Origin: Sphaeroforma arctica JP610 | Lineage: Eukaryota | Reading direction: 5' to 3' | NCBI RefSeq assembly: GCF_001186125.1 | Contig: NW_014040422.1 | Span: 17,862-54,290 of the forward strand | Length of the DNA: 36,429 bases | In this document: in pieces, positions 12,226 through 36,429 of the stretch | Numbering within the stretch: the stretch's first letter is position 1 | Layout of the letters: each line of letters begins with the position of its first letter | Program-made: the position numbers and the translations under genes | Notes under the pieces: model-generated | The model's input: the letters and a program-made list of their open reading frames with translations, nothing else | Database searches by the model: none | What the model was told of the DNA's origin: nothing

Positions 12226-12269
12226 CGGGAGGCTTGTGTGTGAGCGTGATTTCTTCTTTTGCCACCATT

Positions 12270-12880: not shown

Positions 12881-12919
12881 AATGGGTGTAGCCTTGTGAA
12901 CATTGGCTCAGCGTGGAGT

Positions 12920-13885
12920 AGACGTATAGCTGAACATACATTTTGGACATGAGACGTGCGCTTACAAATAGTACAGTGAAGTTCTGCTGTCTAACAATCG
13001 GTACCGGTGTGGTTTTTAGACCCACTGCGACCGCATGCCTTGGTACAGGCAGAGGAGCGATGGCCGCTTTGGAAACACACAAAGCAGGGGTTCGGAGGTC
13101 GAGGGAAGCTGTGAGAGGCTTCCATGGCGTCGATACAATTAGTGAGGCCTTGGAGCATGGATTCAACAGACTGAGGGGGCTTCACAGCAGATGTTGTGGA
13201 TGCCGCAGCAACCTTAGGGAATGGAGCGTCGTGTATCCCGGGGCTGAACTTGTTCCAGCGTTAAAGGCATTCACAAAGTAAGAGGGAAGAGATATGATCA
13301 TGGTTGGGGACATCATGAGGATGTACATGCCTTGAACAAAAACAGCGGGGAAATCGTGTTTTTTTTTTTCAGAGGCCATGGTAGCAATTGAGGTGACACG
13401 CTTGCACCAGGTGCGAAGTGTGTCATCGTCGGTGCGGGAGAAGGATTTCAGAAAGTCGAACGAGATGAAATTGTTGATGGTGACGGAGTTGTTCTCGAAG
13501 GGACGACAAAGTTAGATGAGTAGAGCCCAGGGGTCTTCACAGAGTCTTTGGCGGTGAGAGAATCCAAAACGTCTTCAGAAAGTGATCGGAGTAAGAGGGA
13601 CTTGGCCAAGAGATAGGTACCATTTGTCTTGGTTTCTCGGCGAAAACAAATGATGCCTTCGATCTTAGCAGTATCAGCAGCGGGCGTACGTTGATGAATT
13701 GGGGTGCTAAGTTGTTTGGCAAGAATTTCTCGTTCGATGTGCTTGTAACGTAGAACACCTTCAATGTCGTCCTTGTATTCTGTATTGGCAATGAGATGTG
13801 CCCACCACTTGTCATAGTTCGATCCATCGTAAAGAAGTTTGAACCATCGGATTTTACGGCTCTCGCCTGAGATTGAGTCGGACAT
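12920..13885 (-). pseudogene. Copia gag with CCHC zinc knuckles, frameshifted
   Basis: LLYDGSNYDKW N-terminal motif; CFVCFQSGHRSSAC and CTICKRTSHVQNVC knuckles. Confidence 0.85.
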
Positions 13886-13928
13886 AGCAAATATAATGAA
13901 GTTGGTACAACTTTTTGATCAAAAGATA

Positions 13929-13940
13929 GTGCCCATAACC
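13929..13940 (-). promoter_or_regulatory. Primer binding site, copia-type (internal fragment of initiator tRNA-Met)
   Basis: GGTTATGGGCAC directly after the 5' LTR; resembles the Drosophila copia PBS GGTTATGGGCCC. Confidence 0.8.
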
Positions 13941-14165
13941 TATAAAGACCAATAAAAGCTTTATTCCTGAGAGACTGTTTTATTAATTGAATATTACTTG
14001 ACATTTTATGCCAGTAAAACTGGACTAGTGTCTATTTATCTGGAGTCCCAAATGGGCAGAGGAGTAAAAACCAGAAGTATAAATAATAGAGTAATGTGGA
14101 TGTGAGGACCAGTTCACTTCTACCGGATGACTTCTAAGATCGTAGAGCAACTTTAGTGCTCAATA
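13941..14165 (-). repeat. Copia 5' LTR (225 bp)
   Basis: Homologous to 8263-8488; flanked by the PBS and the TSD. Confidence 0.93.
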
Positions 14166-16084: not shown

Positions 16085-17242
16085 TACTGTAGTCTCTCTT
16101 TCCCAGCTACTTCGAACAAGCACAGCGTATCTTTGAACACAGCAACATAGACGTGTTCGCAGCACCTCATAACGCACAGCTTCCTAGGTTTTGGACAAAG
16201 AACGAGCGCGACGGTGCATTTGATCATAACTGGGCGTTCGTTGACAGATGGATGAATCCGCCGTGGAGGTTGATACATCGCATGCTTCGGAAGATCAAAG
16301 CGGATGGGGCTACAGCGACGGAGTGCTTACCTTGGACACCTCGCGTATCATGGTTTGACATTTTCAAATCTTTATTACACATCGAGCCAATGTTAGTACC
16401 CCGGACCCCGTATACATTTCGAAAGTACGCGAAGTATGCCTGTGGAAAGACGACGTGGGGACATACGGTCGTTGAACGAGTGGGGCCGCCGTCAGGTTTC
16501 CAGCTCGCCGAGAGCTTTACACAAAGATTGGGCTATGCCGAACCTCGACACACACCATACCATCAGTTTTTGGATACGACACGAGAGATTTCCTTAGCGT
16601 TATCTAGTGAGGGAGCACAACCGACCTTTGCGAATGCCACACCGATGGAACAACAACGACGTACACACCTCATACAGGCACAGCATGAGCAAGGCCACCA
16701 CGGCGCTGCCGATACTGTCCAACAGTTACAAAAGAACGGCCATGTCTGGCCGGGGGCATTAGAACTGGCTACCGAAATTAAACGGCAGTGTGTACAGTGT
16801 TTGGGCCAGGATACTCTACGTAAAGGCTTCCATCTGATGATAGAATTGATGCAAAGTACCCTTGGGATCACATTCAGGTGGACTATAATCCAATGCCGGT
16901 AACGTCCACAAGACAGAATAAATTTGTCCTCCGTGTATTAGATGTGGCTTCCGGCTATTCGATCTTACGTGCTACACCCGATAAGACTAAGGAAACCACC
17001 GCGCAGATGTTGTTGTCTATCTTTGGCAAACGTGGCTTCTCTCGCAAGTTAAAGACAGATCAGGGTAATGAGTTTACGAACAACATGGTCGCCCTCATTG
17101 TCAAGGCAGTGGGTATACTTCACAAAGTATCACCACCTTACAGATCACAGGTGCTGGGGGCAATGGAGCGTCGGCACAAGGAGATAACACGTTCGATACG
17201 CATCGTATGTGAGGCAGTACCTCAACCATGGGACGAACGACT
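16085..17242 (+). pseudogene. Gypsy pol fragment: Dam-like methyltransferase + integrase HHCC + integrase core (sister subfamily of the 20555 element)
   Basis: DVFAAPHNAQLPRF, WMNPPW (16255-16266), HEQGHHG...CVQC, DVASGY, TDQGNEF, GAMERRHK. Confidence 0.9.
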
Positions 17243-20209
17243 GAGTTTCTGGTGTCCTTTTTTTAATTTGCGAAATATGAGGTCGATTTGTGTTATTTGG
17301 AACTCTGGTGTCCATGCAACTAAACGTTGGTGATTAGATTTTATATAGGGTTTAGGGTTTTTAGGTAGATTATTTTTGCTTCAAATTGGCTTATCACTTT
17401 ATAAAACCAACGAAGACTCTATGCTTCGTCAAGACCCGAAATCTGCGCATTCTTACGGGCTTCTCGCAATGCCCCTTGAGTGTCGCGCTCCATAATGTTG
17501 CTGAGGTTATACCAGTTCGAGGGCCACTCCGGCCAACTACGTGGTTTTCGTGGTTCCTGTTTGTTCGCCGGTCGTGAGTCATGGGTTGCTCTTAATGTCT
17601 CGAGTACACCTCTTAGTGCCTCCGCTCGTGGCAAGTTGTTGGCTTCCATTGCACTACATAAATCCTCCGACAATTTGAGCATACGCGCGTGCAAGGCTTG
17701 GCGGTCCGCCGCTATTCTGTCTGGTGTATGAGGTGTGGCCTGCTGAGCCAAGCATCAACGCTTCTCCGATGACGTGGCTTGACTCGACGGTGTGCGTTCA
17801 AGCATCCTGTGTGACGGTAGACTGTCATTCATAGCTTCTCGTACAAAATGTTGCCTCTGACGTTGTGCTTATAAAGATGTGTCCATATTGTCACGTCGAC
17901 TATCCAGTGCCTCCCTCCCGTGAGGGTTCTGTGTAGCTCTACGTTGTTTCTTTGCAACCTTTTGACGAGATATCGTTTCCTGTTGTGTATCGCTTTCGTC
18001 CTGATCCGACGATGTGTCCCCTAACCCATGACGGACATTGTCGGCTCCTCTAATGCGGAACTCGATGTTGTCCGATGATGAAGGTGTGTTCCCTCGTCAC
18101 AGTCGACGCAAACACCGTTCATGCCTCTCGAGGAGTTGTCCCCTCCTGGTAGTGAGCCTGCGACGTCGAATGTGGTGTTCTCATTAGTTCGGGGATACGT
18201 CGTTTAGTCTAGCCCGTCGCGTTGTTGTTGTGCTGTTAGTGTCCACTGGAGTATTGTTTGGTTAGTTCAACGTTCTGACTCTAAGTCCTCCGACACTTCT
18301 CCATCCGCTTAGGAAGCCACGTTGATGGATGTCATCCCGTTCACGTTGTTCTGGGGATAGCTGTTGCTGCCGACGACTCTGTCGAACGTTAGCCATGGTT
18401 GAAGTAAACTTGTGTTTGTCTATTGATAGCAATCTGTTTCAACTTCTTTTTCTTCTGACTTAAATAGGCATTCGACTGTTCATCTCACGCCTACAAATCA
18501 CTCGAAGTCCCATTAACCGTTCTCTCATCAATATGTTTTTGTACCCCTGCCTTGGTCTTGTTGCACTAACATCGTCCACACTTGAACCTCGTGCTCCAAA
18601 CTACCCCGGTTATCCTTGCGGCTGCTCTTTACTCCTTCCGACCAACTCCGTACTCTCGAAACCCATGCCATTACTCGTTTTGTGGGTTCTTTACTACTCA
18701 TGTTCTTGCTCTATCGTTCCGTACACATGTTTTTTTTTGCTACCCACGTTCACCCGTTTCACTTTTGGCTCTGACCCTAGTTAGTTGGCTAGATTGCTGC
18801 CTATCCTCGTCGTCGCTGTGTCTTGGTGCTGCACGTTCTCACACCACACTTGTCTACCGTAACTCATACGGTATATTCATATTCACATTGAAATCGACGA
18901 ATTTGGTCGGACTATTCATATGCACATTTACAATTCTCACTCCCTCGTGTACTCAATTTAGTACTGTGTACACACACCCTATCGTTCTATGTAGCGTCGT
19001 GCCACTCCTATTGTTTTTGTATCTTTTATCTTATGTACCCGAACTTGCTGTATGACTGTCATTGCATGTGCATCTTCCTTTAGTGTATACGTGTGCATGT
19101 CATTTCTTTGCAAACATATGTCTTCTACTAATAACCTAGTTAGTTTACACATGATTACTTAAGTATCTATCCCATATCATGCCTCTCTCTCTTATTCCTG
19201 TACCCGATTTCTTACGTACCTTTTGGAGGCCTGTACACACGTGTACTTCGTGCTCGTTGCCATGGCGATGCTCAAACGTATACACCTACCTGACTTTTTT
19301 TTGTTTTCCTTGACCCTCTAATACCGTCTACAGTTCGTCCAAATCCTCCTTATTCTTCTGGATATCCTTCTTGATTTGAGTCGACTCTCGTTCCGGTATC
19401 GATGCCCATGGCTCCGTGCGCTCCTCTTGTCGCGGCATGGTCCGCAGAGTCCATGTCAATGTGGTCGTCGGATTCCTATTCTCTTGTTCCCACACAACAT
19501 TTTCTCTGAATCGATTCTCCGTTGTGTTATCTATCGTTGATGTCCTTTGGGTCTCCTGACTGCTAACTTCTATGTCCTCTAGTCGTCTTCCCCTCTCATC
19601 TAACCTGTCTACCTGTCGATGTACATGAGATTGTATTCTACGGTTGTGTTGACCCACACGGCTCGCCTGCCCCTGTATTCTTACGGTTCCCTCCGTCATT
19701 TCATGTTCTGAAGCACTACTGCTGTTTAGTAGAAGTGCGGGCATGCTATCGCTTGTATCGCTACTAATAAATCCACTATCCGTGTCATTTAACAATGGTT
19801 CGGTCGTGTTGGAAATCTTCATTTCAGTTGCTGATGTCTACTGATGCCTAGGACTTTCTCTCTTCTTTGTGTCATAAAAAAATAATTCTACTTCTATCTG
19901 TGGACCTCTCGTTCCTATTATCTTCTTTTCCTATGTAGGATAAGCTCAATTAATGTACAACATCTAAGTCAGTTAAAAATGTAGTAAGTAGTTGAGGATA
20001 ACTGTATCTCAACGTACTCCCCTCGTCAAGGGGAGACGTTGTTCATTTATTGAACTAAATCCTGCGACTATCATTTTGGTCATGTATTTTCCGTTAATCA
20101 GTTTTAACCTGATTGGATAAACCCAGTTCAAAATGTAGTCTTTAATAAAACTCAAATATCAAATAAACCATAATCCTAAATAAACCCTATCAGGGACTTC
20201 CTGACTACA
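17243..20209 (-). mobile_element. Gypsy family-2 5' portion, copy a: LTR start, accessory ORF, leader, truncated gag
   Basis: Begins TGTAGTCAG (cf. TGTGGTCAG at 20555); gag PRSWPEWPSNWYNLSNIMERDTQGAL is homologous to the gag at 22799; near-identical to 29533-31708. Confidence 0.85.
19328..19822 (-). CDS. Accessory ORF upstream of gag (family 2), low-complexity, DSGFIS motif
   Basis: 164-aa ATG ORF; N-terminus aligns with ORF 20933-21400. Confidence 0.5.
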   Translation of the reverse strand: MKISNTTEPLLNDTDSGFISSDTSDSMPALLLNSSSASEHEMTEGTVRIQGQASRVGQHNRRIQSHVHRQVDRLDERGRRLEDIEVSSQETQRTSTIDNTTENRFRENVVWEQENRNPTTTLTWTLRTMPRQEERTEPWASIPERESTQIKKDIQKNKEDLDEL

Positions 20210-20214
20210 ACAGT

Positions 20215-20552
20215 ACAATTATGCTTATTATCAACAGGGGAACATGAACAAACAGGTCTCCTCAAGAAAGTAAGAACATGTTAAGACTTACGCGAGATCA
20301 ATTACCAACATGAACAAGATAATTCGTGCTGCCAAAAATAAACGAGGTATTACACAACTACAAGGAATCCTTCTCATAGCTAGATCTCACGGAGATTTTT
20401 GCCACTCTTTTGTAGACGAAGCAAGCCAACATTTCTTCACATTCTTGTGGAGAGGAGCGCAATACTCATTCAAGCCAGCGCCGTTTGGCCTACACTCACT
20501 CACAGTACAATTTCAGAGAGTCATGGCAAACTTGCTCATAGACATCAAATAA
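20215..20552 (+). pseudogene. Old Gypsy reverse transcriptase fragment between two back-to-back LTRs
   Basis: KKVRTC.DLR.IN, FTFLWRGAQYSFKPAPFGLHSL..QFQRVM. Confidence 0.85.
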
Positions 20553-20932
20553 GTTGTGGTCAGAATACAAGTACTTAGGTTTTAGTTGTTTATTTTCGTT
20601 ATTATAGTTTTTAACAGTTTATCAGAATAATCTAATAAACTTGGTTTTTGCTGACTATTACAGCACATGACTTATGACTCACTTTAAGAGTCACTAATTT
20701 TACAATTACTAATAAATGAACAACGTCTCCCTCTCTACGGAGGGAGAATGTTGCGATACAGTTATTTAAGAGTTCGTTTACCACATTTTTAACTTACCAT
20801 GGAAGTTGTGAGTTTATTAATAATTAGGAAATAGGCTACTTTATAATAATTGAATGAAATTTATTACATTTTTCTACAGGAATACGACGAACGAAGAAAG
20901 AGAACACCGATTGTTATAATAGCGGAAGTAAG

Positions 20933-21400
20933 ATGGCGCGACAAAATGACAAAATCTTTCAGAATCTACCCGCGGTAGAAGACGATAGTGGGTACACAAG
21001 TAGTGACGCTAGTGCCACAAGGCCATCATTGATGTCGAGTAGTGGCAGCGATGAGGAAGAAACGCCGAGACCGAACGATCAGCACGACCGATGGAATCAG
21101 CAAAAGGAATCTGAAGTGAACAATGGACCCTTCAGGCTCAATAGAATCAGTATGGCTAGACAGCTCGAACGTTTCAGGCTTCCTAGACAGGTATCTAACT
21201 TTACTGTGGCTCCAAGAACGGGGGCAAACAACGACAATACGACCGAACCCAAGGAGCCCACGACCGAACCCAAGAAGCAATCGAATCTGGAACAGACATC
21301 TGAAGTACAAGAACGAAATGAGCAGGACACGAAGGGCCAAACGGCCAAGACGAGGGTCCAGCCAGACGATCAGTTAAGTAGAAACGATGGTACAAAGTAG
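20933..21400 (+). CDS. Accessory ORF upstream of gag (family 1), DSGYTS motif
   Basis: 155-aa ATG ORF with a homologue at the same position in family 2. Confidence 0.5.
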   Translation: MARQNDKIFQNLPAVEDDSGYTSSDASATRPSLMSSSGSDEEETPRPNDQHDRWNQQKESEVNNGPFRLNRISMARQLERFRLPRQVSNFTVAPRTGANNDNTTEPKEPTTEPKKQSNLEQTSEVQERNEQDTKGQTAKTRVQPDDQLSRNDGTK

Positions 21401-22514
21401 TTTGGTGATTATATGTTGTAGAAACAAATAGTATGGATGAAATTGTGGGTTAGATATCGAGTTAGAACCCTATTCTGTAATTATTTTTTTTGTTAGAGGA
21501 TGCTCAGTAGAAATTGCATTAGAGAAATGGAACCAGTGTATATAGAGAGTAAGATCTAAGGGGTTGTATGCATAGAAGCAATCGGGAATAGAATTAGGAA
21601 TGTTGCTCCTACGGTAGATGGGGCAAGTATATATAATGCTACAAGAAATACGCCCTTCCTCTAGGCATAGACAAAAGGAAGAGTTAGGTAGTTCGCAATG
21701 TCCCAGTTAGAAAATACTGAAAGAGACTAAAACGAAGGTTAGAAAGCAAGTAAGGACACAAAGAACAAGTCAGCGTAAACAATTATAGATGTATATCATG
21801 ATATCATAAGCATAGTGCGTTACTAACGTGGTATGAGAGATTCTTCTTGACGAAATTGAGAGATCGAAGGGGAAGAGAGTATGTACATATTTAAATGGTA
21901 CCCAGGTACATTGAACAAAGAGGTTAGCAATAGGCTCTTGGAACGATACGGACTAATAGTACAATTTGAGTCTTACTGTAAATCAAAGAACCACCTTAGA
22001 AGTTACAGTACATAGACAAGGATGATATCTGGTAAACTAGGGGATGTCGAGGTAAGAATTGTATAATGCACAGTTAGAATCCACAGAGGCACTAGGAACT
22101 ACTTGTCTAAGCAAAACTTTGTGTTAGAGATGCTCGAAAGAAAGTACCAAGCAGGATCTAGAGGTAAACAGAGGGGTCCGTAGGGCACGACAGGCCGACA
22201 ATAGGCAGTTACATACCGATTACCGCAACGGCACATGCAGCTGCACAAGGGAGTGAGATTAGCAAAGGAAGGTGAGTAAAGCGAGAGCGGTGGAGCTCTC
22301 TAAGGAGCAAAAGTATGTCGCCGAAGAAGGATGTGACTCCGCTAGGAGGTTGGAGTAGCACCCAAGGAGTGTAGGGTGAACCCCGACAAGTATTTCATCG
22401 AAGGATATACGGCACCATAGTCTGCTGAAGGCATGAGCAGGATTCATGTACAAATGCACACCTCTGAAAAGGAACGTAGTGAAGGGCACGGAANNNNNNN
22501 NNNNNNNNNNNNNG

Positions 22515-23932
22515 GGAGGAAGACGACATAGACCGTCGAGGGACTAAGCGCCAACAACAACAGCGACAATCGTTCGAGAGGGCAGCAACCAGTGAGCATG
22601 TACAGACGCCTAAGCGAGCGGAGACGACGTCGCTCATATATCCACCCACACCGGCGAGTATTGAGAAAAGTCGACAGGTGCTACACGCACGTATACTACA
22701 CTTGAGCGACGAGTTATGCCAAGCAATAGAGGATAATTCGAGCTGAAGCTCTTAGGGGAGCGATAGAAAGGCTTCGAGCCACGCTAGAGTCCCGTCCAGT
22801 GGAAAAGCGTCCGGTACCATCACCTCGTACATGGCCCAATTGGCCCTCGAATAGATACCACCTCCACGACATAATGGAACGGGACACGAAGGGGGCTCTA
22901 TTGGAGGCTTTTAAAAACGCGCAAATCGCAGGGTTAGATGAGAGTTGGAGCCTTACATGGTTCCACAAGGTATTATCTTACTTTAAGGCTGAGAAGTCAA
23001 CATTGGTTTACATACGTGACAACTCTGAACGATTGAAGATGTGGACGCCACAACTACAAATCGAACAGACTTGCTCGCACGAGACTCAAGCCACTGTTGA
23101 TACCGCGTTTCGTAAGCTTGCCAGGAGCCACAACCGCAACATGCACACCCCTATTATGGAACAAATGACACAGCTCATGGAGAACCACAGGAGGGCACGT
23201 GAACGATGCCAGACGGATGCAGATTTCCAACAGAATTTATTAAACCACTGCATTGTTCAACTGTTGGAGGAAGCTCTCAACGGCCGTACGTATGAACACA
23301 CTCTACAATTGCATCCCAAATGGCAGTTAATGAAGACTCGCGAGCTTCTACAGTTGTTGAGTCCCGACATTCAGGACGCACAGCAGCGCACTGCGGCGCG
23401 ACTCCAGTACCGTAATAATCGCGAAGGTCCACCAAGTAATGGGGCTCGTGACTACACCAATAGCCGCCCTAACCCGCAAACGGTTCAACGACAGTCACAG
23501 AACTGGTCACAGCGACCCCAGCCGACATTACCTACAACGTGCGCTGGATGTCAGGCACAATCACCGCCAGGTTCACGTCATAATTCGTGATGTCACCATT
23601 TCCGAGCGTCGCCCCCAGGGGGAACGGACGGCAGGGCGCGGCCGTATGACACCAACCGCATATCACGAAACACACAACCGGCACACAGACCGTCCGCAGC
23701 TCCAACCTTAGGACAGGGACAGCCCAACAACCCGGGCAAAGACTTGGTCACTACACGCCCGACTCCGCAAGTACAGGTGAACGCGATTACAAACGACGAC
23801 AGTTTTGTACCACCATCAGCAGCTACAGAGGTACACATCAACACGATACTCACGGAAGACTTCGAGCACACGATACTGGAACCAGATCAGGACCACGGTG
23901 TATGGGAGACTGTTACCGATCAAGCATGAGAT
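22515..23932 (+). pseudogene. Gypsy gag, in frame with pol through in-frame stops
   Basis: ORFs at 22799, 23744, 23933 and 25097 share one frame; CAGC..H..C knuckle-like motif at ~23539-23593. Confidence 0.75.
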
Positions 23933-25950
23933 GTGAGGGTGTCTGAGTCGGATATGAGCTTCACATTTGTTAATACTATTAGGGAAGTGATGGCGATACA
24001 GGACTCATTACTGTATTCTGATAACCGAGCTTATATTCAAGTGCAAGTTAATGGACGTACGTTCAAAGCATTGATAGACACGGGAGCAAACAGAAGTTGT
24101 ATCTCACAGACATCCGCAGACCTCCTCGGCCGCCCAATATCTCCAGCACCACCTTGGTCATTCATATATTTAGCTGACAAGGCGGTTCGAACTCCTCGAC
24201 TGGGGACGACGGAAGTGGTACCCATTCGGTATGGGACCAAGATTATCGACGGGTCACTGGAATTGATGAATTTACCGGCAGGAATAGACATCATAGTGGG
24301 ACAAGATATGTTGAAAGGCTTGGTTCTATACATAGGCGGCATCCAATCTCCACTTGCACCAATAGACCTCACAGAACTCGATGAGCTCCTCGAACCCATC
24401 CCACGACGACAGGCAGGAATAGACATCATAGTGGGACAAGATATGTTGAAAGGCTTGGTTCTATACATAGGCGACATCCAATCTCCACTTGCACCAATAG
24501 ACCCCACAGAACTCGATGAGCTCCTCGAACCCATCCCACGACGACAGGCAACGAACACGACGGAACCCGCCGATGCACGTCAACGGCTGGCACAGGATTT
24601 AGAGGCGAACGCGCAGATTGCTGACAAGGCGCGATGTCGTCTGGAAGGGAGCGAAGTTACCATTCCGGTAACACGCGAACAGGCGATGCACATGCGCAGA
24701 TCAACGCGTAACTTTGTATCCGACCGGTGGCTACCATTCGTGGACGAGCAGATAAAGAAGTGGTTGGCGGATTTGGTGATCACGAAGCGGACGATACCGA
24801 CGACTGTTAACCTCCCGCTCCTTGCGGTCCCGACGTTTGATGCAGAAGGGAACGTGAAGAAGGTACGCGTATGTTTAGATATGCGTGCTGTCAACGCGCT
24901 TATTCCGGGCGACCAGTTCTTGATTCCCAAGGTCAACGAACTTATCTCTCGCCTCAAGAGTGAGAAGTACTACACTACGCTGGATATATCGGCGGCATAT
25001 CGTAGGCTACCGATCCATCCCGATTCACAATATCTGTTTAGCTTTACACACGAGCGTAATCAGTACTCGTTTACATAGGCGCCGTTTGGACTCCATGTGC
25101 TCACGCAACAGTTCCAGCAAACCTTGAGCACAATACTGGACGGCTTGCCGGTCCACCACTATATCGACAATATAGCTATTACCAGCAACGACTATGACGA
25201 ACATATTCGAACGGTGAAGAAGGTGATTCAACGTTTAACATACCACAGTTTTAAGCTCAACCTCGCCAAGTGCTACTTTGCTATTCCCGAAGTGATGATC
25301 CTAGGGAAGAAGGTGTCGGCACAAGGCATATATATTGATCATGAGAAGCAGACCAAGCTTATCGACTGGCCTACCCCACTACGGCACAAAGACATAGCCT
25401 CTGCCATAGGATTGGCGAATCATCTTCGTGAACATCTCTCCAGCTTCGCGAACACGGTTGCACCTTTGCGCGACTTTTTTTTGCGATCGTTGGGAGGAAA
25501 GACATACACAGACGTGGCAAGCGATGAAGGATGCAGTTGTCAATGCAGTGGCGTTGCACTTTCCGGTCGAAGGTATACCCTTGAGCTTGGAAACCGACGC
25601 TAGCGATTACGGTTTGGGGGGAGCGTTATTACAATGGGTCGACGGGAAGAAACAATATTTAATGTTCTTTAGCAAGACTCTGAACCATGCGCAACAGAAC
25701 TACGCTACACCAATGAAGAAGTTACTAGCCTTGGTGTACGGGCTGACATATTTTAGGGAACATTTGGATGGGCAACGGTTTGCAGTCTTTACGGACCACA
25801 AGGCCCTGGTGTATATGAATATACAGCTCAAGCTTAATCCGATGCTCCAGAGATGGCACCATACTATAGCACCGTTCAACTTTGCCATATCACATATACC
25901 AGGAGAGACAAACGTGTTTCCGGACATGTTGAGCAGAGTACATGAGGGGA
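23933..25950 (+). pseudogene. Gypsy protease, reverse transcriptase and RNase H
   Basis: ALIDTGA; RVCLDMRAVN; LDISAAY; APFGL; YIDN (mutated YIDD); LETDASDYGLGGAL; FTDHKAL; NVFPDMLSR. Confidence 0.95.
24277..24550 (+). repeat. 135-bp in-frame tandem duplication (45 aa)
   Basis: AGIDIIVGQDML...PIPRRQ occurs twice; units start at 24277 and 24412. Confidence 0.95.
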
Positions 25951-25985
25951 CAGCGGAGCAGGACGAGCCTGAAATACTGTACACA

Positions 25986-26395
25986 GACTGTTGGCAGTTA
26001 TTCCCTAGTTACTTTGAACAAGTGCAACAACACTTCGGTCCGAACAATACAGATGCATTTGCGGACCCGTCTAACGCTCAGCTTCCTCGATTTTGGACTA
26101 AAGACGATGGGGAAGGGGCGTTAGCCCACGACTGGTCGACAGTCGATGAATGGATGAACCCACCATGGGAGAAGATACATAGAATGTTACGCAAGATAAG
26201 GACCGATGGTGCGAGGGCAACGGTGTGTCTGCCATGGGTACCAAGGGCACCATGGTTTGACCTGTTCAAACAGTTGTGGCAATCAGAACCAGTACTGGTC
26301 CCACGAACGCCACACACGTTCCTCAAGTACGCTAAGTATGCCTGTGGCACGACGTCATGGGGACACACAGTGATTGCACGAGTGGGACCCCCTAA
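25986..26395 (+). CDS. Dam-like DNA N6-adenine methyltransferase domain within pol
   Basis: WQLFPSYF...DAFADPSNAQLPRF...GALAHDW...WMNPPW (26157-26168)...ATVCLPWVPRAPWF; same ORF as RNase H. Confidence 0.88.
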
Positions 26396-26569
26396 CGGGT
26401 TCAAACCGGACCCGCTGTTTTCACACAGCGACTTGGGCATACAGAACCAAAACACATAGCGTACGTAATGTGTTTAGATACCTCGCGAGAGATCTCGGTG
26501 GCAACGGCGAATGCAGAAGGTCAACCGGCATTTGAGCGGGCGACGCCAGAAGAACAACAACGCCGTACG

Positions 26570-27564
26570 CGACTCACACAAGCGCACCACGAACAAGGAC
26601 ATCATGGTGCGGCTGATACAGTTCAACAACTCCGTCAGAACGGTCATGTGTGGCCGGGCGCACTTGAATTGGCAACGGAAGTCAAACGGCAGAGCGCTAC
26701 ATGTTTGGGACAGGGTTTAGGGTTTTTCGTAAAGGTTTCCACCCGATGATTAGCATTGACGCGCGCTACCCGTGAGACCATATTCAAGTCGACTATATCC
26801 CGATGCCACTTGAGTCCAGACGAAAGTACAATTATGTACTTCACGTCCTGGACATTGCTAGAGGCTACTCAATCCTTCGAGCGACACCGGACAAGACGAA
26901 GGAGACGATAGCACAGACACTAATATAAGTTTTTGGCAAGCATGGTTTCCCACGTATGATCCAGACGGACATGGGGAATGAATTCACTAACAAGATAGTG
27001 GAGCTACTGGTCCAAGAAGTGGGTCTGCTACACAAGGTGTCACCGCCATATCGACCCCAAGTACTGGGTGCTGCTGAACGCCGTCATAAGTAGATTACAC
27101 GTTCCATTCGACAATACTGCGAGGCAGTTTCTCTAGGATGGGACGAACGCTTTCCGTTTACGATGCTCTATCAGAACCTTCGGATATCCCGACGTCACAA
27201 GAGCGCGCCGTTCAGTGTATCTTTTGGCCGCCGTCATGTACCATTTGCCGACTTCACTGAGGACTTACCGGATACCCAGCCGAAGACGAACGACACCTGG
27301 GCACAACGGTTAGACCAGTTGCAGGATACCATACTGCCGACTCTCCACCACATTATCAAGAAGTATACAGGCAAACTTACGAAGACATTTGACCGCCTGC
27401 ACGCTCATGACTTGGTCCATTTCGACGAAGGCGATGTGGTTATGGTACGATCGGAGGGTAGAACGACTAAGGCAATGCGGCCACTGTTTGGGCCGTATGT
27501 GGTGAAGGCCAGGATCGGACAACGATATGAGTTAGCGAATAAAGACGGATCCGCCCCTCCATAA
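26570..27564 (+). pseudogene. Gypsy DDE integrase (HHCC, core, GPY motif), disrupted
   Basis: HEQGHHG..., DIARGY, TDMGNEF, GAAERRHK, PLFGPYVV. Confidence 0.9.
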
Positions 27565-27846: not shown

Positions 27847-27906
27847 ATTTTTATCTTCAGATATGCCTACTCGGTAGGACAGTGCGCTCGAACCGTAATC
27901 GTCGAC

Positions 27907-28006
27907 CCCTCTAGCTCTCAGAGGTTAAATGCCAGTACACTGCTCTAGCTCCCAGAGGATAACTGCCAGCACACTGCTCTAGCTCTCAGAGGATAAATGC
28001 CAGCAA
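27907..28006 (+). repeat. Three 34-bp tandem repeats in the 3' UTR before the PPT
   Basis: CTCTAGCTCTCAGAGGATAAATGCCAGCACACTG, period 34. Confidence 0.9.
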
Positions 28007-28083
28007 CTAAGTTACTTGGGTGTTCCTCACGATCTCTAAAACTGGCACACTGTTTTTCGGTCAGTGCTTCAGTTTGGGGGGGT

Positions 28084-28255
28084 TGTGGTCAGAATACAAG
28101 TACTTAGGTTTTAGTTCTTTATTTTAGTTAGTATAGTTTTTTTTACAGTTTATCAGAATAATCTGATATTCTTGGTTTTTGCTGACTATTACAGCACATG
28201 ACTTATGACTCACATTTAGAGTCACTAATTATACAATTTCTAATAAATGAACAAC
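28084..28255 (+). repeat. Family-1 3' LTR (truncated)
   Basis: Follows the G7 PPT; matches 20555-20724. Confidence 0.9.
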
Positions 28256-28256
28256 C

Positions 28257-29532
28257 GAGTACGGATAAGGCTAGCCGCAGTGTTGGAAGCGAACGCCGAC
28301 ATTGCAGACAATGCACGTTGCCGCTTAGAGGGGAGTGAAGTGGCAATACCGGTCACACGCGAGCAGGCTAGGAGTGAGACGGTCGACACGCAACTTTATA
28401 TCCGAGCGATGGTTACCGTATGTCGATGAACAAGTACAGAAGTGATTGAAGGATCTAGTGATTACGAAGCGGACCACTCTCACGGCGGTTAATATTCCCT
28501 TACTCGTAGTTCCAACGTTTGATAGTGAGGGTAATGTAAAGAAGTTACGGATATGTCTGGACATGCGAGCGGTCAACGCACTATTTCCAGGAGACCAGTT
28601 CTTGATACCGAAGGTGAATGAGATCATTTCACGACTGAAGAGCAGGAAGTACTATACCACACTCGATATATCAGCAGCATATCATAGACTACCGATACAC
28701 CCGGATTCTAGAGACCTATTTAGTTTCACACACGATCGATACCAGTACTCGTTTACATCGGCACCTTTCGGGTTACACGTATTGTCGCAACAATTCCAAC
28801 GGACACTCAGTACGATACTAGATGGACTACCAGTCCACCACTACATTGTTGATATTGTGATTGCCAGTGACGATTATGAAGAGCACATCGCTACAGTGAA
28901 GGAGGTGATCAGAAGATTGACGTACCACAGGTTAAAACAGAATCCAGCGAAGTGTCACTTTGCAGTTGCAGAGGTTATGATACTAGGCAAGAAGGTTTCA
29001 GCTGCAGGTATTGACGTTGACTTTGAGAAACAGGCTAAACTCCTCGACTGGCCAACACCTCAGCGATACAAGGACATTGCCTCCGCATTGGGGTTAGCTA
29101 ACTTCTTGCACGAACACCTACCCAATTTCGCACACGTGGTAGCCCCTCTACGGGAGTTTTGCAAGCTGAAGCCGAATGAACTGATCGAAGATTGGTGGGA
29201 ACAACGCCATGCGGACGCGTGGACAGTGATGAAGGACGCGATTGTCAACGCGGTCGCACTACACTTCCCGGTGGATGACGTCCCCCTCAACCTCGAGACA
29301 GACGCAAGTGACTACGGATTGGGATTGGTGGGAACAACGCCATGCGGACGCGTGGTCAGTGATGAAGGACGCGATTGTCAACGCGGTCGCACTACACTTC
29401 CCGGTGGATGACGTCCCCCTCAACCTCGAGACAGACGCAAGTGACTACGGATTGGGGGGGGGGGGGGGGGCTGTTCCAGTGGGTGGAGGGCAAGAAACAC
29501 TACCAAATGTTTTTCAGCAAGACACTCAATCA
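28257..29532 (+). pseudogene. Gypsy RT and start of RNase H (sister subfamily), with a 133-bp tandem duplication at 29190-29455
   Basis: RICLDMRAVN, SAPFGL, YIVD (mutated), LETDASDYGLG twice. Confidence 0.92.
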
Positions 29533-31708
29533 GTCGTGTGCCCGGCGACGATTTTCCAGAAGGTATGTCATCTGTTCCATCACTGGAAAATTACTAAGTT
29601 TCTGGTGTCCCTTTGCTAATTTGCGAAATGTGGGGTCCACCGTAGCCTGAGTCTTGTGTGAACAGATATGTGTTATTTGGAGTTCTGTTGTCTTTTATTA
29701 AACGTTGGTGATTAGATTTTATATAATCATGTGTAGATTGTTCGGCTTTAAAGTGGCTTAGGGTTAAACTCTAAACCCCTAAAACACCTTATAAAACCAA
29801 CGAAGACTCGATGCGTCGTCGAGACCCGAAATCTGCGCATTCTTAAGGGCTTCTTGCAATGCCCCTTTAGTGTCGTGCTCCATAATGTTGCTGAGGTTAT
29901 AGGATGTCATCCCGTTCACGTTGTTCTGGGGATAGCTGTTGCTGCCGACGACTCTGTCGAACGTTAGCCATGGTTGAAGTAAACTTATGTTTGTCTATTG
30001 ATGGCAATCTGTTTCAACTTCTTTTCCTTCTGACTTAAATAGGCATTCAACTGTGCATCTCACGCCTACAAATTACTCGAAGTCCCATTAACCGTTCTCC
30101 CATCAATATGTTTTGTACCCCTGCCTTGGTCTTGTTGCACTAACATCGTCCACACTTGAACCTCGTGCTCCAAACTACCCGGTTATCCTTGCGGCTGCTC
30201 TTTACTCCTTTCGACCAACTCCGTACTCTCGAAACCCATGCCATTACTCGTTTTGTGGGTTCTTTACTAATCACGTTCTTGCTCTATCTTTCCGTACACA
30301 TGTCTTTTTGCTACCCATGTTCACCCGTTTCACTTTTGGCTCTGACCCTAGTTAGTTGGCTAGATTGCTGCCTATCCTCGTCGTCGCTGTGTCTTGGTGC
30401 TGCACGTTCTCACACCACACTTGTCTACCGTAACTCATACGGTATATTCATATTCACATTGAAATCGACGAATTTGGTCGGACTATTCATATGCACATTT
30501 ACAATACTCACTACCTCGTGTACTCAATTTAGTACTGTGTACACACACCCTATCGTTCTATGTAGCGTCGTGCCACTCCTATTTTGTTTGTATCCTTTAT
30601 CTTATGTACCCGAACTTGCTGTATGACTGTCATTGTATGTGCATCTTCCTTTAGTGTCTATGTGTGCATGTCATTTCTTTGCAAACCTATGTCTTCTACT
30701 AATAACCTAGTTAGTTTACACATGGTTACTTAAGTTAAACCCTAAACCCTAAAACCCTAAACCCTAAAACCCTAAAATCTATCCCATATCATGCCTCTCT
30801 CTCTTATTCGTGTACCCGATTTCTTACGTACCTTTTGGATGCCTATACACTCGTGTACTTCGTGCTCGTTGCCATGGCGATGCTCAAACATATACACCTA
30901 CCTGACTTCCTTTTGTTTTCCTTGACCTTCTAATACCGTCTACAGTTCGTCCAAATCCTCCTTATTCTTCTGGATATCCTACTTGATTTGAGTCGACTCT
31001 CGTTCCGGTATCGATGCCCATGGCTCCGTGCGCTCCTCTTGTCGCGGCATGGTCCGCAGAGTCCATGTCAATGTGATCGTCGGATTCCTATTCTCTTGTT
31101 CCCACACAACATTTTCTCTGTAGCGATTATCCGTTGTATTATCTATCTTTGACGTCCTTAGGGTCTCCTGACTGTTAACTTCTATGTCCTCTAGTCGTCT
31201 TCCTCTCTCATCTAACCTGTCTACCTGTCGATGTACATGAGATTGTATTCTACGGTTGTGTTGACCCACACGGCTCGCCTGCCACTGTTTTTTTTACGGT
31301 TCCCTCCGTCATTTCATGTTCTGAAGCACTACTGCTGTTTCTTCTTTGTCATAAAATTTTCTACTTCTATCTGTGGACTCTCGGTGCTATTATCTTCTTT
31401 TCCTATCTAGGATAAGCTTAATTAGTGTACAACATCTAAGTCAGTTAAAAATGTAGTAAGTAGTCGAGGATAACTGTGTAGTAAGTAGTCGAGGATAACT
31501 GTATCTCAACGTACTCCCCCTGTACAAGGGGAGACGTTGTTCATCTATTGAACTATATCCTGTGACTATCATTTTGGTCAAGTGTTTTCCGTTAATCAGT
31601 TTTAACATGATTGGATAAACTCAGATCAAAATGTAGTCTCTAATAAAAGCCCAAATATCAAATAACCCCTAATCCTAAATAAACACTATCAGGGACTTCC
31701 TGACTACA
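29533..31708 (-). mobile_element. Gypsy family-2 copy b: LTR, accessory ORF remnant, leader, internally deleted gag
   Basis: Near-identical to 17243-20209, with deletions at ~29901 and ~31340. Confidence 0.88.
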
Positions 31709-32348
31709 ACCTCCCCAAGCTGAAACACCACAATTGTGCCAGCTTAAAAGATTGAAGGAATGCCCTGAAAGCGGTTAAGTGCTGGCATTTATTCTCAGAG
31801 AGCTAAAGCATTGTGCTGGTATTTATCCTCAGAGAGTTAGAGCATTGTGCTAGCATTTAACCTCAGAGAGCTAGAGGGTTCGGCTATGTTTCCACTATCA
31901 GGGACTTCCTGACTACAGCCTCCCCAAGCTGAAACACCACAAGTGTGCGAGCTTAAAAGATTGAAGGAATGCCCTGAAAGCGGTTAAGTGCTGGCATTTA
32001 TCCTCAGATAGCTAGAGCATTGTACTTGCATTTATCCTCAGAGAGCTAGAGCATTGTGCTGGCATTCATCCTCAGAGAGCTAGAGCATTGTGCTGGCATT
32101 TAACCTCAGAGATCTAGAGGGCTCGCTAATTTTTTCACCACTCGAGTTGGTAACTAAACGGTAAGTACACGTAACATAAAATCATATCTATTAACAAAAT
32201 TCTCTTCTAACTATAACAGGTCTCTCCGGCGTTTCGAACTAGTATTTAACCTCAGAGAGCTAGAGGGCTGGCATTTATCCTCAGAGAGCTAGAGCATTGT
32301 GCTGGCATTTATCCTCAGAGAGCTAGAGCATTGTGCTGGCATTTATCC
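31709..32348 (-). repeat. Family-2 3' UTR: arrays of the 34-bp repeat and PPT GGGGAGG, with a ~209-bp duplicated PPT/LTR-start block
   Basis: GTGCTGGCATTTATCCTCAGAGAGCTAGAGCATT, period 34; block starts at 31684 and 31893. Confidence 0.88.
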
Positions 32349-32455
32349 TAAAAGCAGGCCGCGGATACACAAACGGACACATCGCAGCCCCAATGGACTC
32401 CGATAACAGAGCAACACTGAGACCTCAGGGTTTTAGGGTTTAGGGTTTTAGATTT

Positions 32456-32889: not shown

Positions 32890-35800
32890 TAAGCGTTCTC
32901 GGTTACCCTGTGAGTTTTGGGTTTAGGTCCAGTAGGTCCGTGGTGGTCGACTGGACGTTTCTTACGCTTCAATGGTTTTGGAACATACGGATGAGCAGTA
33001 AAGTTCGGGATAAATGCTGTTAAGTTTTAATTTCCGTGCCTTCAGACGATGGGAACATGCTATCTTTTTCAGCATGTGACTTATGTAGGCGTTTACGCCA
33101 TTTTCTGTTAAATGCCTTTAAATAGTCCTGATTGTCAAAAGCGTCTGAAGTTAACTCAGCGATTGTACCGTCTATAAAGCGTGTACGATAGTATCCGTTC
33201 TCCATATAATATCTTTGAATTCGGAGCGGCCAAGAGGTGCAGTAGAATCATGTCTTCTTGCGAGAATAATCTCAGTAGTCGGAACCCGACTAGTGCATAT
33301 ATTTAAAGCACTAGAACCGTCGGGGTTATTATCCCCACAGGTTCCACTTTTTATGTCGGCTACAGAGATTATATATGGTCCTATCCATTTCGATGTTAGT
33401 ACAGTAGCATCGGAATTACGTTGACGGATGTCAACTCTGTCTCCAACCTGATACTCTGCTATCTTTTTGGTAGCATTCCATCTATTTTGCCTTTTTAATA
33501 AGGCTACATTACGTGTCTATCGCAAGCAAGGATATACAACGTTGTGTATGCGTTGTACCTTCTCTAACCATAGTAACTCATGGTGATCAGGTTCGTCCTT
33601 GTTGAAGGGTATTTGCAACTCGCTATATCTCACTATATCTGCCACGAAAATAGTGAGCGGGTGTTGTTCCTGTAACCGGATCAGCGCACTCGTTCATCCG
33701 TGTTTGTACCCACTTAATGTGGTACGGCCAATCATCTGCATCATTCGTTAATGCAGTACGTAAAAAGATCTTAAGTCTACTGTGGCGCGTTTCATTTGCG
33801 CCTTGTGTTTGCGGTTTATAGTACACACCTTTTATGGCACATGCCTGATACGAGTACTAACGATTCCATTACGTTATCGCAGAACTCGCTACCGTTACCA
33901 GTGCACATTATACCTGGTCACCCGTGGTCAGCAAAGACTTGGCAACATAATTATGCCACGGTCTGCGTACTCTTGATCCAGGTCAACCAGATCAATGATG
34001 ACCCTGCGCCATGGAACATCTTCAGTCACACTCTTAAGCGGTGCGAACCCATAGCGCTTGATCTGATTGAGATCACAGTCTGTATATGACTGATATACTC
34101 TGTCAACTAAAGTTGCTCTACTACGTTCTGGTGCTTCAGCTTATGGTTTTGCGTCAGCCAAGCAAGAATGTTGTCATCATTCTGCTCCTCCAGAATAAAG
34201 GTAGGGTGTTGAGAATCCACTTGCGTGGTCTCTAAGTCTGTAGTGTTTCCAGACTCCTGTCCTTCTTTCGCATGAGTGTCATGAGTGCGCTCGTGTGCGT
34301 TTGATACACCTGACTTATTTAATAGTCGCATTATATGTGTATATGCTTCGGGATTTTCTTTCATAAATCCCTTTAAAAATAGGGTTTGAAAGACTTCGGG
34401 CTTGGACTTTATGTTATTAAAACAGAGTCCTAGCTAGAGACTAACGCGTCGTAACTATAGTGTTAATAGTAGATTGTATTTCATGTGCACAGACTTCAAG
34501 TGCTGTGTTGCCTTTGAACTGCTTAACGTTCAATCTATTGGAGAGTGTAATCTCCGATTCTTTGACCTTGTTAAGAAAAGGTCTCAGAAGGGGNNNNNNN
34601 NNNNNNNNNNNNNCTTTACTTCGTAACGGGCAACACAACGTGATGTTAGCTTTGTGTATATGAACATAATTTTGTAATTGGGCAATTAACTGCTGTTGTG
34701 GATTAGCCCACGCATTATGTTTGTAGAGGTCTAGTTGAAAGGCATCTCCTAAAGAATGATTCAAAGTCCTGTAATTCTTAAGTTGTGCATTATGATGTGC
34801 AGCAAACATGTCAACTGTATGTGGCCCAAAAATCTTTTGAGCCAGTTCAAACCACCTGTGGTTACATTTCCAATCAGTGGCTAGTAACTCACGTACGGAT
34901 TTATTAAAGTCCGGTACGAAGCGTGATAACATATCCGGTAAATGGTTATGTATCCCTGGTAGATGTTCGATATCGAAATAAAACTTTGATGTCGTATCAT
35001 GTCATCGGCTCAGTAATTGATACCGTATAGGTAATCGCGGAAGTGTATTAAAGCTGCTACTATGGCTAGTAGCTCTTGCTTCACAGTTGGATAATTCAAT
35101 TGTGATGCATTCATTGCTTGGCTAAAGAATTGTATATGCCTAGGATTATTATCTATAACCTGGTATAGTACACATCCGAGTGCTAAGTCTGATGCGTCCG
35201 TTGCTATTTCAAAATGCACGCCATCGACTGGTCCTTGTACAACAGGGGCTTGTTAGACTGCGTGCTTAAGCGCTTTAAATGCGTCATCACACTCTTTAGT
35301 CCACAAGTCTCCTAGTTTACCTTTATGACATGTTAAGTGTCCAAAGGGTTTAAGATAATCAGCCAAGTAAGGTACTCCATCTGAAAAGAAGTTTACAAAC
35401 CCACACATGCTGTTCACATCTCTTCCTGTAATTTGTTCGCCAATATAACAGGTGTTCCACCTTACCGGGGCCGATTTTAATACCTTCCCCAGATATACGA
35501 TAGCCCAAGAGCTGTATTTCGCTCATGGCGAAGTGACATTTCTTCTCGTTAATCTTGAAATTTTGTTCGTTGAGTATCTGAAGGACTCGCCTGACCAATG
35601 CGGCATGTTCGCCCTTAGTCTTACAAAAGATGACTATTTAGGGTTTTTAGGGTTTAAGGGTTCAAACATTTCCTCCATTACTTGTTGGAAGAATGCTGGT
35701 AAAGAGTGCAACCCGAAAGATGCACCTCTAAACCTGTATTGTTTACATTTCCAGGTAAAACTAAAGTACTTACGATGGGGTTCATAAATTTGCATTTGAA

Positions 35801-36429
35801 GATACCCCTGTGTTATGTCTATGGATGTAAATACCGTAGCACCTTCCATTCGTCTCAGTAACTCGTTTATACGAGGGAGATTGAAACTATAAGTCAGCAA
35901 TAATTTATTTACTGGACTCATATCTAGACATACTCTGACTTTCTTAAATGTTCCGTCAGAGTTGTGTTGATCAACTGCCAATAATGCTAAGTTAACTGGC
36001 GTTTGTTGGTATTTGATTTCGATTACCCCATCGGATAACCATTTCTCGACTTGTTCTTTAACAACAGCTTCATGTCTCCAAGAAACATAGTTTCTTGAAG
36101 GACATTTGAACTTAGTAAAGTCTACCTTGGTTAAGTCAAGGCTGACGTATCCGTCCTTGAAGCGGAATTTCGCCCAGTCGGTTATTTTTATCTTCATATT
36201 TACTAATATAAGATCCATTATCTGATCGACAAAGCCAGGAATTAATTCCTTGACTGTGTCCGATGGTGGTGTATATGGTTTTAGACAATTATCGTCTGAC
36301 TGATTCTTTAATGGATCTAAGTTGTTGGGTAAGCCTGTTACGGTTATCCTTAACGTGAGCAAATCGCTCATTCCGACTATATTGTCGTACTTCTGTGACA
36401 TCTTAACTATCACAGCTTGTAGTAAAAGT
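32890..36429 (-). mobile_element. Divergent Gypsy (family 3) pol: RT, RNase H, Dam-like domain, integrase, probable degenerate chromodomain; runs off the window
   Basis: RVCLDMSPVN, IDITQGY, ASFGL, IATDASDLALG, KQELLAIV, PDMLSR, DMFAAHHNAQL, QGANETRH, GPYII. Confidence 0.9.
34615..34885 (-). pseudogene. Dam-like methyltransferase domain of family 3
   Basis: DWKCNHRWF...FGPHTVDMFAAHHNAQL...DAFQLDL...WANPQ...ITLCCP. Confidence 0.8.

What the first reader, a model, noticed from the sequence alone, without database searches (positions are those of the whole stretch)
25986..26395. Ty3/Gypsy retrotransposon with an N6-adenine DNA methyltransferase between RNase H and integrase, plus a chromodomain
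Seen: a ~135-aa domain with DAFA..NAQLPRF, DW, NPPW and LPW.P...WF lies in the same ORF as RNase H and just before the integrase HHCC; pol ends in a chromodomain. Known: NPP(Y/F/W) is motif IV of amino-methyltransferases, and this Dam-like family is a hallmark of DIRS tyrosine-recombinase retroelements and phages, not of canonical DDE-integrase LTR elements. Inference: the element may write 6mA on its own cDNA or integration site. In many unicellular eukaryotes 6mA marks active chromatin, so this could pair a chromatin reader with a DNA writer to evade silencing. I cannot verify whether this has already been reported.
Basis: partly seen in the sequence, partly recalled or inferred. Interest (0 to 1): 0.88.

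Follow-up and report, generated by a model that had tools for sequence, protein, structure and literature searches.

The report
Decayed methylase-carrying Gypsy retrotransposon
This is a broken copy of a Gypsy-type jumping gene in a single-celled relative of animals that carries an adenine-methyltransferase-type domain and a worn chromodomain; this kind of element was described in this species in a 2026 preprint, and it likely methylates its own reverse-transcription products.

Summary
At 25974-26396 a Pfam Dam domain (PF05869, above its curated cut-off; DAFA and NPPW motifs intact) shares an ORF with RNase H and precedes an HHCC/DDE integrase that ends in a chromodomain. It folds confidently as an N6-adenine methyltransferase (pLDDT 90.6) and was under purifying selection as strong as the integrase's (pN/pS 0.22). 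This copy is dead (stops, frameshifts, YIDN in RT). The host is Sphaeroforma arctica. Two refinements remain. The preprint says the ichthyosporean lineage lacks chromodomains, yet this copy and an Abeoforma relative carry a divergent one; here two of three methyl-lysine cage aromatics are missing, so 'reader' is unproven. And the closest solved fold is the RNA cap methyltransferase PCIF1 (Z 11), not EcoDam (Z 7.8), so RNA or RNA:DNA hybrid is a live substrate. Side find: two Ty1/Copia proteins with the same domain.

The parts
20555..20785 (+). 5' LTR, 231 nt, TGTGGT...ACCACA terminal inverted repeat; sits at the broken end of an RT fragment of another DAM-LTR family
   Evidence: 92.5% over 174 nt to 28082-28255; ends read; an N-gap at 22494-22513 lies between it and gag, so the link to pol is by LTR similarity, not by unbroken sequence
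22730..23929 (+). gag-like region by position, with an internal stop at 23588-23590
   Evidence: ORFs; no Pfam gag hit, assignment inferred from position
24035..24316 (+). aspartic protease (LIDTGA), followed by a 135-nt tandem duplication 24274-24543
   Evidence: PF13975 38.7 bits; repeat D15
24797..25342 (+). reverse transcriptase, broken (stop 25076-25078; YxDD reads YIDN)
   Evidence: RVT_1 22.4 and 34.1 bits in two pieces; translation
25491..25874 (+). Ty3/Gypsy-type RNase H
   Evidence: PF17917 94.5 bits, PF17919 89 bits
25974..26396 (+). Dam-family (PF05869) N6-adenine methyltransferase domain, open and with DAFA and NPPW motifs intact
26558..26689 (+). integrase HHCC zinc finger, other frame than the methyltransferase, first Cys replaced
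   Evidence: PF17921 20.4 bits
26776..27564 (+). integrase core with D, D-x35-E and GPY motif, interrupted by stops at 26926, 27091 and 27562
   Evidence: rve pieces; translation; tblastn to P0010 and P0017
27658..27801 (+). chromodomain lacking the first and third aromatic-cage residues, followed by a basic tail
   Evidence: PF00385 26.1 bits; PDB sequence hits are chromodomain-bearing chains; own profile E 1.9e-9
28076..28255 (+). G7 polypurine tract (28076-28082) and 3' LTR from 28084, cut off after 172 nt by a pol fragment of a sister copy
16093..17333 (+). fragment of a sister subfamily: methyltransferase (NPPW) in frame with integrase HHCC, then integrase core
   Evidence: Dam 25.6 bits, Integrase_H2C2 23.4 bits, rve 51.3 bits; 69% aa identity over 131 codons to the main copy
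33172..36429 (-). third, more distant DAM-LTR copy; methyltransferase at about 34624-34900 decayed (NPQQ) and cut by an N-gap
   Evidence: Dam 20.1 bits, RVT_1 40.4 bits; trees
28283..29536 (+). RT-RNase H fragment of a sister copy (80% aa identity in RT), ends before the methyltransferase

Best explanation
This is a dead genomic copy of a Ty3/Gypsy 'DAM-LTR' retrotransposon of Sphaeroforma arctica whose Pol carries a Dam-family methyltransferase domain between RNase H and integrase, and in its active ancestors that domain likely put N6-methyl groups on adenines of the element's own reverse-transcription intermediate. Shown: domain order, family, fold, intact motifs, purifying selection, decay of this copy. 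Inferred: the domain is a minimal 140-residue catalytic core without a separate recognition domain, made as part of Pol and so packaged beside RT/RNase H, which would give it the RNA:DNA hybrid or nascent cDNA as substrate with little sequence choice; after integration the host's AMT1 would maintain the mark at ApT and keep the new copy transcribed (the preprint's model). The integrase-borne chromodomain would steer integration by a contact other than an HP1-type methyl-lysine cage. The identification is about 0.95 certain; the confidence below is for the mechanism.
For: Dam above cut-off in the RNase H ORF. Model pLDDT 90.6, pTM 0.86 with 76 sequences; best viral folds are phage DNA N6-adenine methyltransferases (E 5e-9 to 1e-7, TM 0.70-0.76). 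NPP(W/F) in 18 of 20 rows of the clade that holds the window copies, the two exceptions being decayed copies (P0009, third window copy); the Asn of NAQL in 20 of 20. pN/pS between the two sister copies 0.22 (bootstrap 0.16-0.31, 131 codons), equal to integrase (0.20, 0.22) and near RT (0.13). The window RT groups with integrase-type elements, apart from 22 DIRS-like RTs (100/100), and with Abeoforma elements; the methyltransferase groups with S. arctica and Abeoforma proteins (20 rows, SH-aLRT 95, quick tree). The preprint reports more 6mA and more transcription on DAM-LTRs than on other LTRs in S. arctica and A. whisleri. PCIF1, the nearest solved fold, works on RNA/DNA hybrids better than on dsDNA (abstract).
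Against: No activity has been shown for any retroelement Dam: the preprint's expression of DIRS, DAM-LTR and adintovirus domains in dam-minus E. coli gave no 6mA rise. Iyer et al. judged all DIRS1 copies of this domain likely inactive (passage). All of the top PDB folds are RNA adenosine methyltransferases, with EcoDam and T4Dam only at Z 7.7-7.8. 6mA on DAM-LTR copies could be written by host AMT1 as a result of transcription. 13 of 122 relatives outside the LTR-rich clade have FPPF and 7 NAPF at motif IV, and earlier scan notes describe Gypsy versions that lost the motif yet stay conserved (not checked), so the domain can persist without the catalytic Asn. I obtained no methylation or expression data for this locus.
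Confidence: 0.5

Rival explanations
1. The domain is an active enzyme but acts on RNA: like its relative PCIF1 it methylates an adenosine of the element's transcript (or the RNA strand of the hybrid), affecting stability, translation, packaging or priming; the 6mA seen on DAM-LTR DNA is then host AMT1 following transcription.
For: PCIF1/CAPAM is the best solved fold by Foldseek (E 3e-4, TM 0.57-0.66) and by VIA-align (Z 10.3-11.2, rmsd 2.6-3.2, 128-139 residues), followed by KsgA/Erm/Dim1; 6 of the 150 relatives also hit Pfam PCIF1_WW weakly; Iyer et al. put the DIRS domain in the PCIF1 clade; DNA test in E. coli negative.
Against: Phage DNA methyltransferases are much closer in the viral library (E 5e-9 against 4e-4 for viral PCIF1-like proteins); no phage PF05869 structure turned up in the PDB by sequence, so PCIF1 may rank first only for want of a closer solved relative. 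The domain is about 140 residues against 467-494 for the solved PCIF1 chains. The LTR-AMT1 co-occurrence reported in the preprint (9 of 13 species) points to DNA.
Confidence: 0.22
2. The domain is kept as a non-catalytic nucleic-acid- or SAM-binding module that links RNase H to integrase, inherited with the RNase H end of a DIRS pol.
For: Same position after RNase H as in DIRS; negative enzyme test; Iyer et al.'s view; motif IV variants FPPF/NAPF in relatives.
Against: Within this clade both DxFA-type and NPPW motifs are nearly invariant over deep divergence; the domain also sits at other places, before RT in Copia-type and endonuclease-bearing polyproteins, which suggests a portable activity.
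Confidence: 0.23
3. Chance motif match, nested insertion or assembly chimera.
For: The region is a nest of broken elements with N-gaps.
Against: Continuous ORF from RNase H into the domain; three independent copies in the window; 11 intact single-protein relatives with the same order among 150 hits; purifying selection.
Confidence: 0.02

Closest known systems
Ichthyosporean DAM-LTR lineage (Fernandez-Moreno et al., bioRxiv 10.64898/2026.05.21.726589; whole main text read, figures and supplements not seen)
   Same: Same host species (S. arctica), Ty3/Gypsy organisation, PF05869-type domain with NPP triplet; trees group the window copies with S. arctica and Abeoforma proteins.
   Different: The text says this lineage 'lacks chromodomains'; this copy has one at Pfam's cut-off and Abeoforma P0017 has one that Pfam misses at E 0.001 but a profile of four relatives finds at E 5e-7. 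Likely a detection-threshold effect (their cut was E 1e-5).
Chlorophyta DAM-chromovirus-like clade and EpiLTRs (same preprint)
   Same: Dam plus chromodomain in one LTR element; chromodomain-bearing LTRs are 30.9% of their DAM-TEs.
   Different: Other hosts; EpiLTRs add a C5 DNMT, for which no Pfam hit was found in the pol ORF pieces scanned.
DIRS tyrosine-recombinase retrotransposons (MT domain, PF05869; PMC3783388, passages)
   Same: Same domain family directly after RNase H.
   Different: This element has a protease, DDE integrase and direct LTRs, and its RT is separate from DIRS-like RTs (100/100).
PCIF1/CAPAM cap-specific adenosine N6-methyltransferase (PDB 6IRV-6IS0)
   Same: Best solved fold, Z about 11 over nearly the whole domain.
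   Different: 13-18% identity; PCIF1 is a much larger stand-alone nuclear RNA enzyme.
Plant group II chromovirus chromodomains (PMC3605345, passages)
   Same: [quoted passage not shown]
   Different: That paper says group II was found only in plants; here the loss is probably independent, and relatives vary (P0017 keeps the first aromatic, P0134 and P0016 keep all three).

Membership tests
Ty3/Gypsy LTR retrotransposon | pol order PR-RT-RH-IN with DDE integrase | tested here: met
Ty3/Gypsy LTR retrotransposon | direct LTRs with TG...CA ends and a polypurine tract | tested here: met
   5' LTR 20555-20785, 3' LTR part 28084-28255, 92.5% identical, G7 tract; 3' LTR truncated
Ty3/Gypsy LTR retrotransposon | target-site duplication and tRNA primer-binding site | tested here: inconclusive
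   3' end is lost so no TSD can be read; no TGG-type PBS seen after the 5' LTR and no clear self-priming complement
DAM-LTR (2026 preprint) | PF05869 Dam domain in the Pol of a non-DIRS LTR element | tested here: met
   39.3 bits, cut-off 28.1
DAM-LTR (2026 preprint) | conserved Asn-Pro-Pro catalytic triplet and five-strand core | tested here: met
   NPPW 26157-26168; model
Ichthyosporean DAM-LTR lineage | ichthyosporean host and grouping with Sphaeroforma/Abeoforma Dam domains | tested here: met
Ichthyosporean DAM-LTR lineage | no chromodomain (as stated in the preprint) | tested here: not met
   chromodomain present; I read this as an error in the description of the lineage rather than as non-membership
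DAM-LTR (2026 preprint) | raised 6mA and transcription of insertions | not testable with these tools
   no methylation or RNA data obtained for this locus
Chromovirus clade | chromodomain at integrase C-terminus | tested here: met
Chromovirus clade | RT falls inside the chromovirus clade | not tested
   the RT tree held only Dam-bearing relatives, no reference Gypsy lineages
Group I (HP1-like) chromodomain | three aromatic cage residues | tested here: not met
   Val at the first, Trp at the second, no aromatic at the third (against P0016 and P0134)
DIRS retrotransposon | tyrosine recombinase, no protease or DDE integrase | tested here: not met
   protease and DDE integrase present; no Phage_integrase hit in the 20 ORFs scanned
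EpiLTR | additional C5 cytosine methyltransferase | tested here: not met
   no such Pfam hit in the pol pieces; pol ends at 27846 right after the chromodomain
N6-adenine DNA methyltransferase (activity) | SAM-dependent methylation of adenine in DNA | not testable with these tools
   needs an assay; negative in E. coli in the preprint

The most novel reading that the evidence does not exclude
The retroelement 'Dam' is not a genome-wide DNA methylase but a PCIF1-like adenine writer that works only on the element's own RNA or RNA:DNA intermediate inside the particle; ichthyosporean DAM-LTRs descend from chromodomain-bearing elements and keep a cage-less chromodomain that still targets integration; and the module has also been captured by Ty1/Copia elements, a further independent capture not in the preprint's text.
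Probability: 0.25. Interest if true: 0.7.

Novelty: already known. Interest (0 to 1): 0.25.

Why it matters
If the domain is active, a transposon would be installing a host 'active chromatin' mark on its own new copies, the reverse of the usual methylation-as-silencing story. That idea and this element class are already in a 2026 preprint that covers this species, so the locus adds little by itself. What it adds: evidence that the ichthyosporean lineage does carry a (worn) chromodomain, a measure of selection on the domain, and a structural reason (closeness to PCIF1) to test RNA and RNA:DNA hybrids, which may explain the failed E. coli assay.

Tried and rejected
No whole genome was held, so copy number, an intact copy in this genome and host AMT1 could not be checked. 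No sequencing runs were obtained, so expression and 6mA at this locus stay open. Single-sequence fold was useless (pLDDT 41); the 76-sequence alignment fixed it. Sequence searches of the PDB found no methyltransferase (one search matched only the RNase H part of the profile). Word-index protein searches missed the Dam-bearing relatives (0 of 56 candidates; 8 RNase H-only hits of 857 candidates). The ESM Atlas gave three clusters at 0.89, under its 0.9 line, one named 'PCIF1 WW domain-containing' with Dam on 27% of members: a lead only. The wide VIA search was not obtained; only the second look at Foldseek's 1000 best chains was. The first RT tree held the third window copy in a wrong frame and was replaced, which also left out the two long-branch endonuclease-bearing rows (P0035, P0089) and counted P0030 as DIRS-like after its RT fell there. 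The careful Dam tree did not finish; the quick tree is quoted, P0135 dropped as too short. 'DIRS-like' is my label from architecture (RT-RH-Dam at the C-terminus, no integrase); tyrosine recombinases were not looked for. My first reading of the LTR end (at AACA, 20722) was wrong; the terminal inverted repeat puts it at 20785. No tRNA genes in the window. The tail ORF of the third copy (33175-33516) gave no chromodomain hit, and P0010, P0012, P0014, P0022, P0038 scored only E 0.06-1.5 with my profile, so a chromodomain is not shown for them although they align by eye. A paper search for the caulimovirus Dam assay cited in the preprint found nothing relevant (listing only).

Full report
OBSERVATION. 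The chromodomain is backed by a PDB sequence search whose hits are chromodomain-bearing chains (54 sequences up to E 1, best E 5e-6). So the order PR-RT-RH-Dam-IN-chromo is real. One correction: in this copy Dam and integrase are in different frames. The in-frame fusion is seen in a sister fragment at 16093-16902 and in relatives.

THE ELEMENT. A 231-nt LTR (20555-20785, TGTGGT...ACCACA) matches 28084-28255 at 92.5%; the 3' LTR follows a G7 tract and is cut after 172 nt by another pol fragment. An N-gap at 22494-22513 lies inside. The copy is a pseudogene: stop in RT (25076), YIDN in place of YxDD, shifts near 25420-25485, 26438 and 26697-26750, stops at 26773, 26926, 27091 and 27562, a 135-nt duplication, and Ser for the first Cys of HHCC. 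The Dam domain itself is undamaged. The window holds three Dam-bearing copies (16.1 kb, 26.0 kb, 34.8 kb) of at least two distinct families, inside a nest of other LTR fragments including a Copia element without a Dam match. A neighbouring amino-acid transporter is 100% identical over 80% of the query to Sphaeroforma arctica SARC_02884 (exon matches), and the two closest hits to the domain are S. arctica proteins, so the host is this ichthyosporean.

THE DOMAIN. A full HMMER scan found 1658 relatives at E up to 0.001; the best 150 were examined. All 150 were scanned against Pfam: 11 have RT/RNase H-Dam-integrase in one protein, 4 of these with a Pfam chromodomain; 2 are Ty1/Copia-type (RVT_2); 2 carry an endonuclease with Dam before RT; most of the rest end shortly after Dam, as DIRS pol does. 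With 76 sequences the domain folds at pLDDT 90.6. The best viral folds are phage N6-adenine DNA methyltransferases. The best solved fold is PCIF1/CAPAM (Z 10.3-11.2, rmsd 2.6-3.2 over 128-139 residues), then KsgA/Erm/Dim1 (Z 8-9.5); EcoDam and T4Dam come at Z 7.7-7.8. This agrees with Iyer et al. (PMC4738411, passages), who placed the DIRS domain in the PCIF1 clade and thought DIRS copies inactive. In the 20-row clade that holds the window copies motif IV is NPPW in 16, NPPF in 2 and altered only in two decayed copies. Between the 26.0-kb and 16.1-kb copies synonymous sites are saturated (pS 0.84) and pN is 0.19, pN/pS 0.22, the same as for integrase (0.20 and 0.22); because of saturation this is an uncorrected ratio, and it records selection in the ancestors, not in these dead copies.

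TREES. In a careful RT tree of 41 rows the window RTs lie with integrase-type relatives, apart from 22 DIRS-like RTs (100/100), and in a 17-row group (99/95) with two Abeoforma proteins and with elements that carry canonical chromodomains at its base (P0033, P0117, P0134). In a quick Dam tree of 152 rows the window copies join S. arctica and Abeoforma domains (SH-aLRT 95) within a 30-row group that holds most LTR-type rows and one row with a DIRS-like RT (P0030); three LTR-type rows and the Copia rows fall elsewhere among DIRS-like rows. This fits repeated capture from DIRS; no clade test or reference Gypsy set was used, so direction and number of captures are not established here.

THE CHROMODOMAIN. 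A profile from the four Pfam-called relatives, run over 173 sequences, finds the window tail at E 1.9e-9 and Abeoforma P0017 at 5e-7, with several unnamed relatives at 2e-4 to 1e-3; the best reversed-sequence control scores 0.051; five other relatives score only 0.06-1.5. The window domain has Val at the first cage position, Trp at the second and no third aromatic, the definition of group II chromodomains (PMC3605345, passages). Binding of methyl-lysine is therefore doubtful.

WHAT IS KNOWN. A paper search for adenine methyltransferase, Gypsy, retrotransposon and DIRS returned two papers. The first, bioRxiv 10.64898/2026.05.21.726589 (whole main text read; figures and supplements not seen), describes DAM-LTRs as Ty3/Gypsy elements with DIRS-derived Dam, defines an ichthyosporean lineage in Pirum, Abeoforma and S. 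arctica, reports Dam plus chromodomain in chlorophyte and Euglena elements, finds more 6mA and more transcription on DAM-LTRs in S. arctica, finds no activity in E. coli, and proposes methylation of RNA-DNA intermediates followed by AMT1 maintenance. The second (PMC5890265, passages) notes Dam in DIRS and DNMTs in Gypsy elements. The scan's earlier notes report the same class in other genomes and cite the same preprint; none concerns this genome. The one disagreement with the preprint's text is its statement that the ichthyosporean lineage lacks chromodomains. A search for Sphaeroforma arctica, LTR retrotransposon and chromodomain gave only the preprint and a Capsaspora paper (listing only). 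The word 'copia' does not occur in the preprint's main text, and a search for copia, retrotransposon and N-6-adenine-methyltransferase gave only the fungal DIRS paper; these searches cover open-licence papers and bioRxiv only.

MECHANISM. Shown: a selected, well-folded amino-methyltransferase core with intact motifs built into Pol. Inferred: as part of Pol it reaches the particle with RT and RNase H and meets only the element's own nucleic acids; lacking a recognition domain it would be unspecific; PCIF1 prefers ssRNA over RNA/DNA hybrid over ssDNA over dsDNA (PMC9178792, abstract), which offers a reason why a test on E. coli chromosomal DNA could fail. I give 0.5 to methylation of the cDNA or hybrid with later host maintenance, 0.22 to an RNA substrate, 0.23 to a non-catalytic role and 0.02 to artefact. 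The reading of NPPW as motif IV of amino-methyltransferases is established knowledge, echoed in the preprint; the role of DAFA in SAM binding is my inference from the fold and was not checked against a ligand-bound structure.

VERDICT. Real feature, correct annotation, already described, including in this species. Interest 0.25: low for the locus, with small value in the chromodomain correction, the PCIF1-guided substrate test and the Copia side finding.

Noticed in passing
P0068 and P0055 (with P0034), hits: Ty1/Copia-type polyproteins carrying the same Dam domain (NPPF): P0068 has protease-integrase-Dam-RVT_2-RNase H in one 1248-aa protein; the three domains form their own group (SH-aLRT 95). 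Copia is not mentioned in the preprint's main text nor in the scan's notes: possibly an undescribed further capture.
   Followed up: partly
P0035 and P0089: Polyproteins with Exo_endo_phos endonuclease, Dam, RT, RNase H and integrase HHCC in one chain; may correspond to the preprint's Euglena elements with LINE-like RT.
   Followed up: no
window 20720-20752 (+), about 20014-20046 (-) and about 31508-31540 (-): A 14-pair hairpin just after the AATAAA signal inside the LTRs of two different families, kept with changes on both sides at 2 pairs; folding z-scores -3.7, -3.3, -2.4 for the 91-nt stretches. Only three sequences; could be a U5/priming or poly(A) control structure. No TGG-type primer site follows the LTR.
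   Followed up: partly
window 20189-20567 (+): RT fragment 62-75% identical to P0010, a different, intact DAM-LTR family; the 5' LTR of the studied element starts where it breaks off.
   Followed up: partly
window 8263-14165 (-): Decayed Ty1/Copia element with 226-nt LTRs 92% identical (8263-8488, 13941-14165); RT and RNase H match P0068, no Dam match.
   Followed up: partly
window 18327-20211 and 29902-31710 (-): Two copies (94% over 1.4 kb) of the 5' part of another LTR family whose leader and LTR layout resemble the studied element, including a short ORF in the roughly 2-kb leader (19328-19837, compare 20858-21400).
   Followed up: no
window 27898-28010 (+) and 31684-32354 (-): 34-nt tandem repeats between the pol stop and the polypurine tract, with a related longer array on the other strand.
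   Followed up: no
window 3227-7351 (-): Spliced host amino-acid transporter gene (PF01490), S. arctica SARC_02884; used to place the host.
   Followed up: yes
window 508-1786: Tandem array of 22-59-nt related units around a 730-nt N-gap.
   Followed up: no
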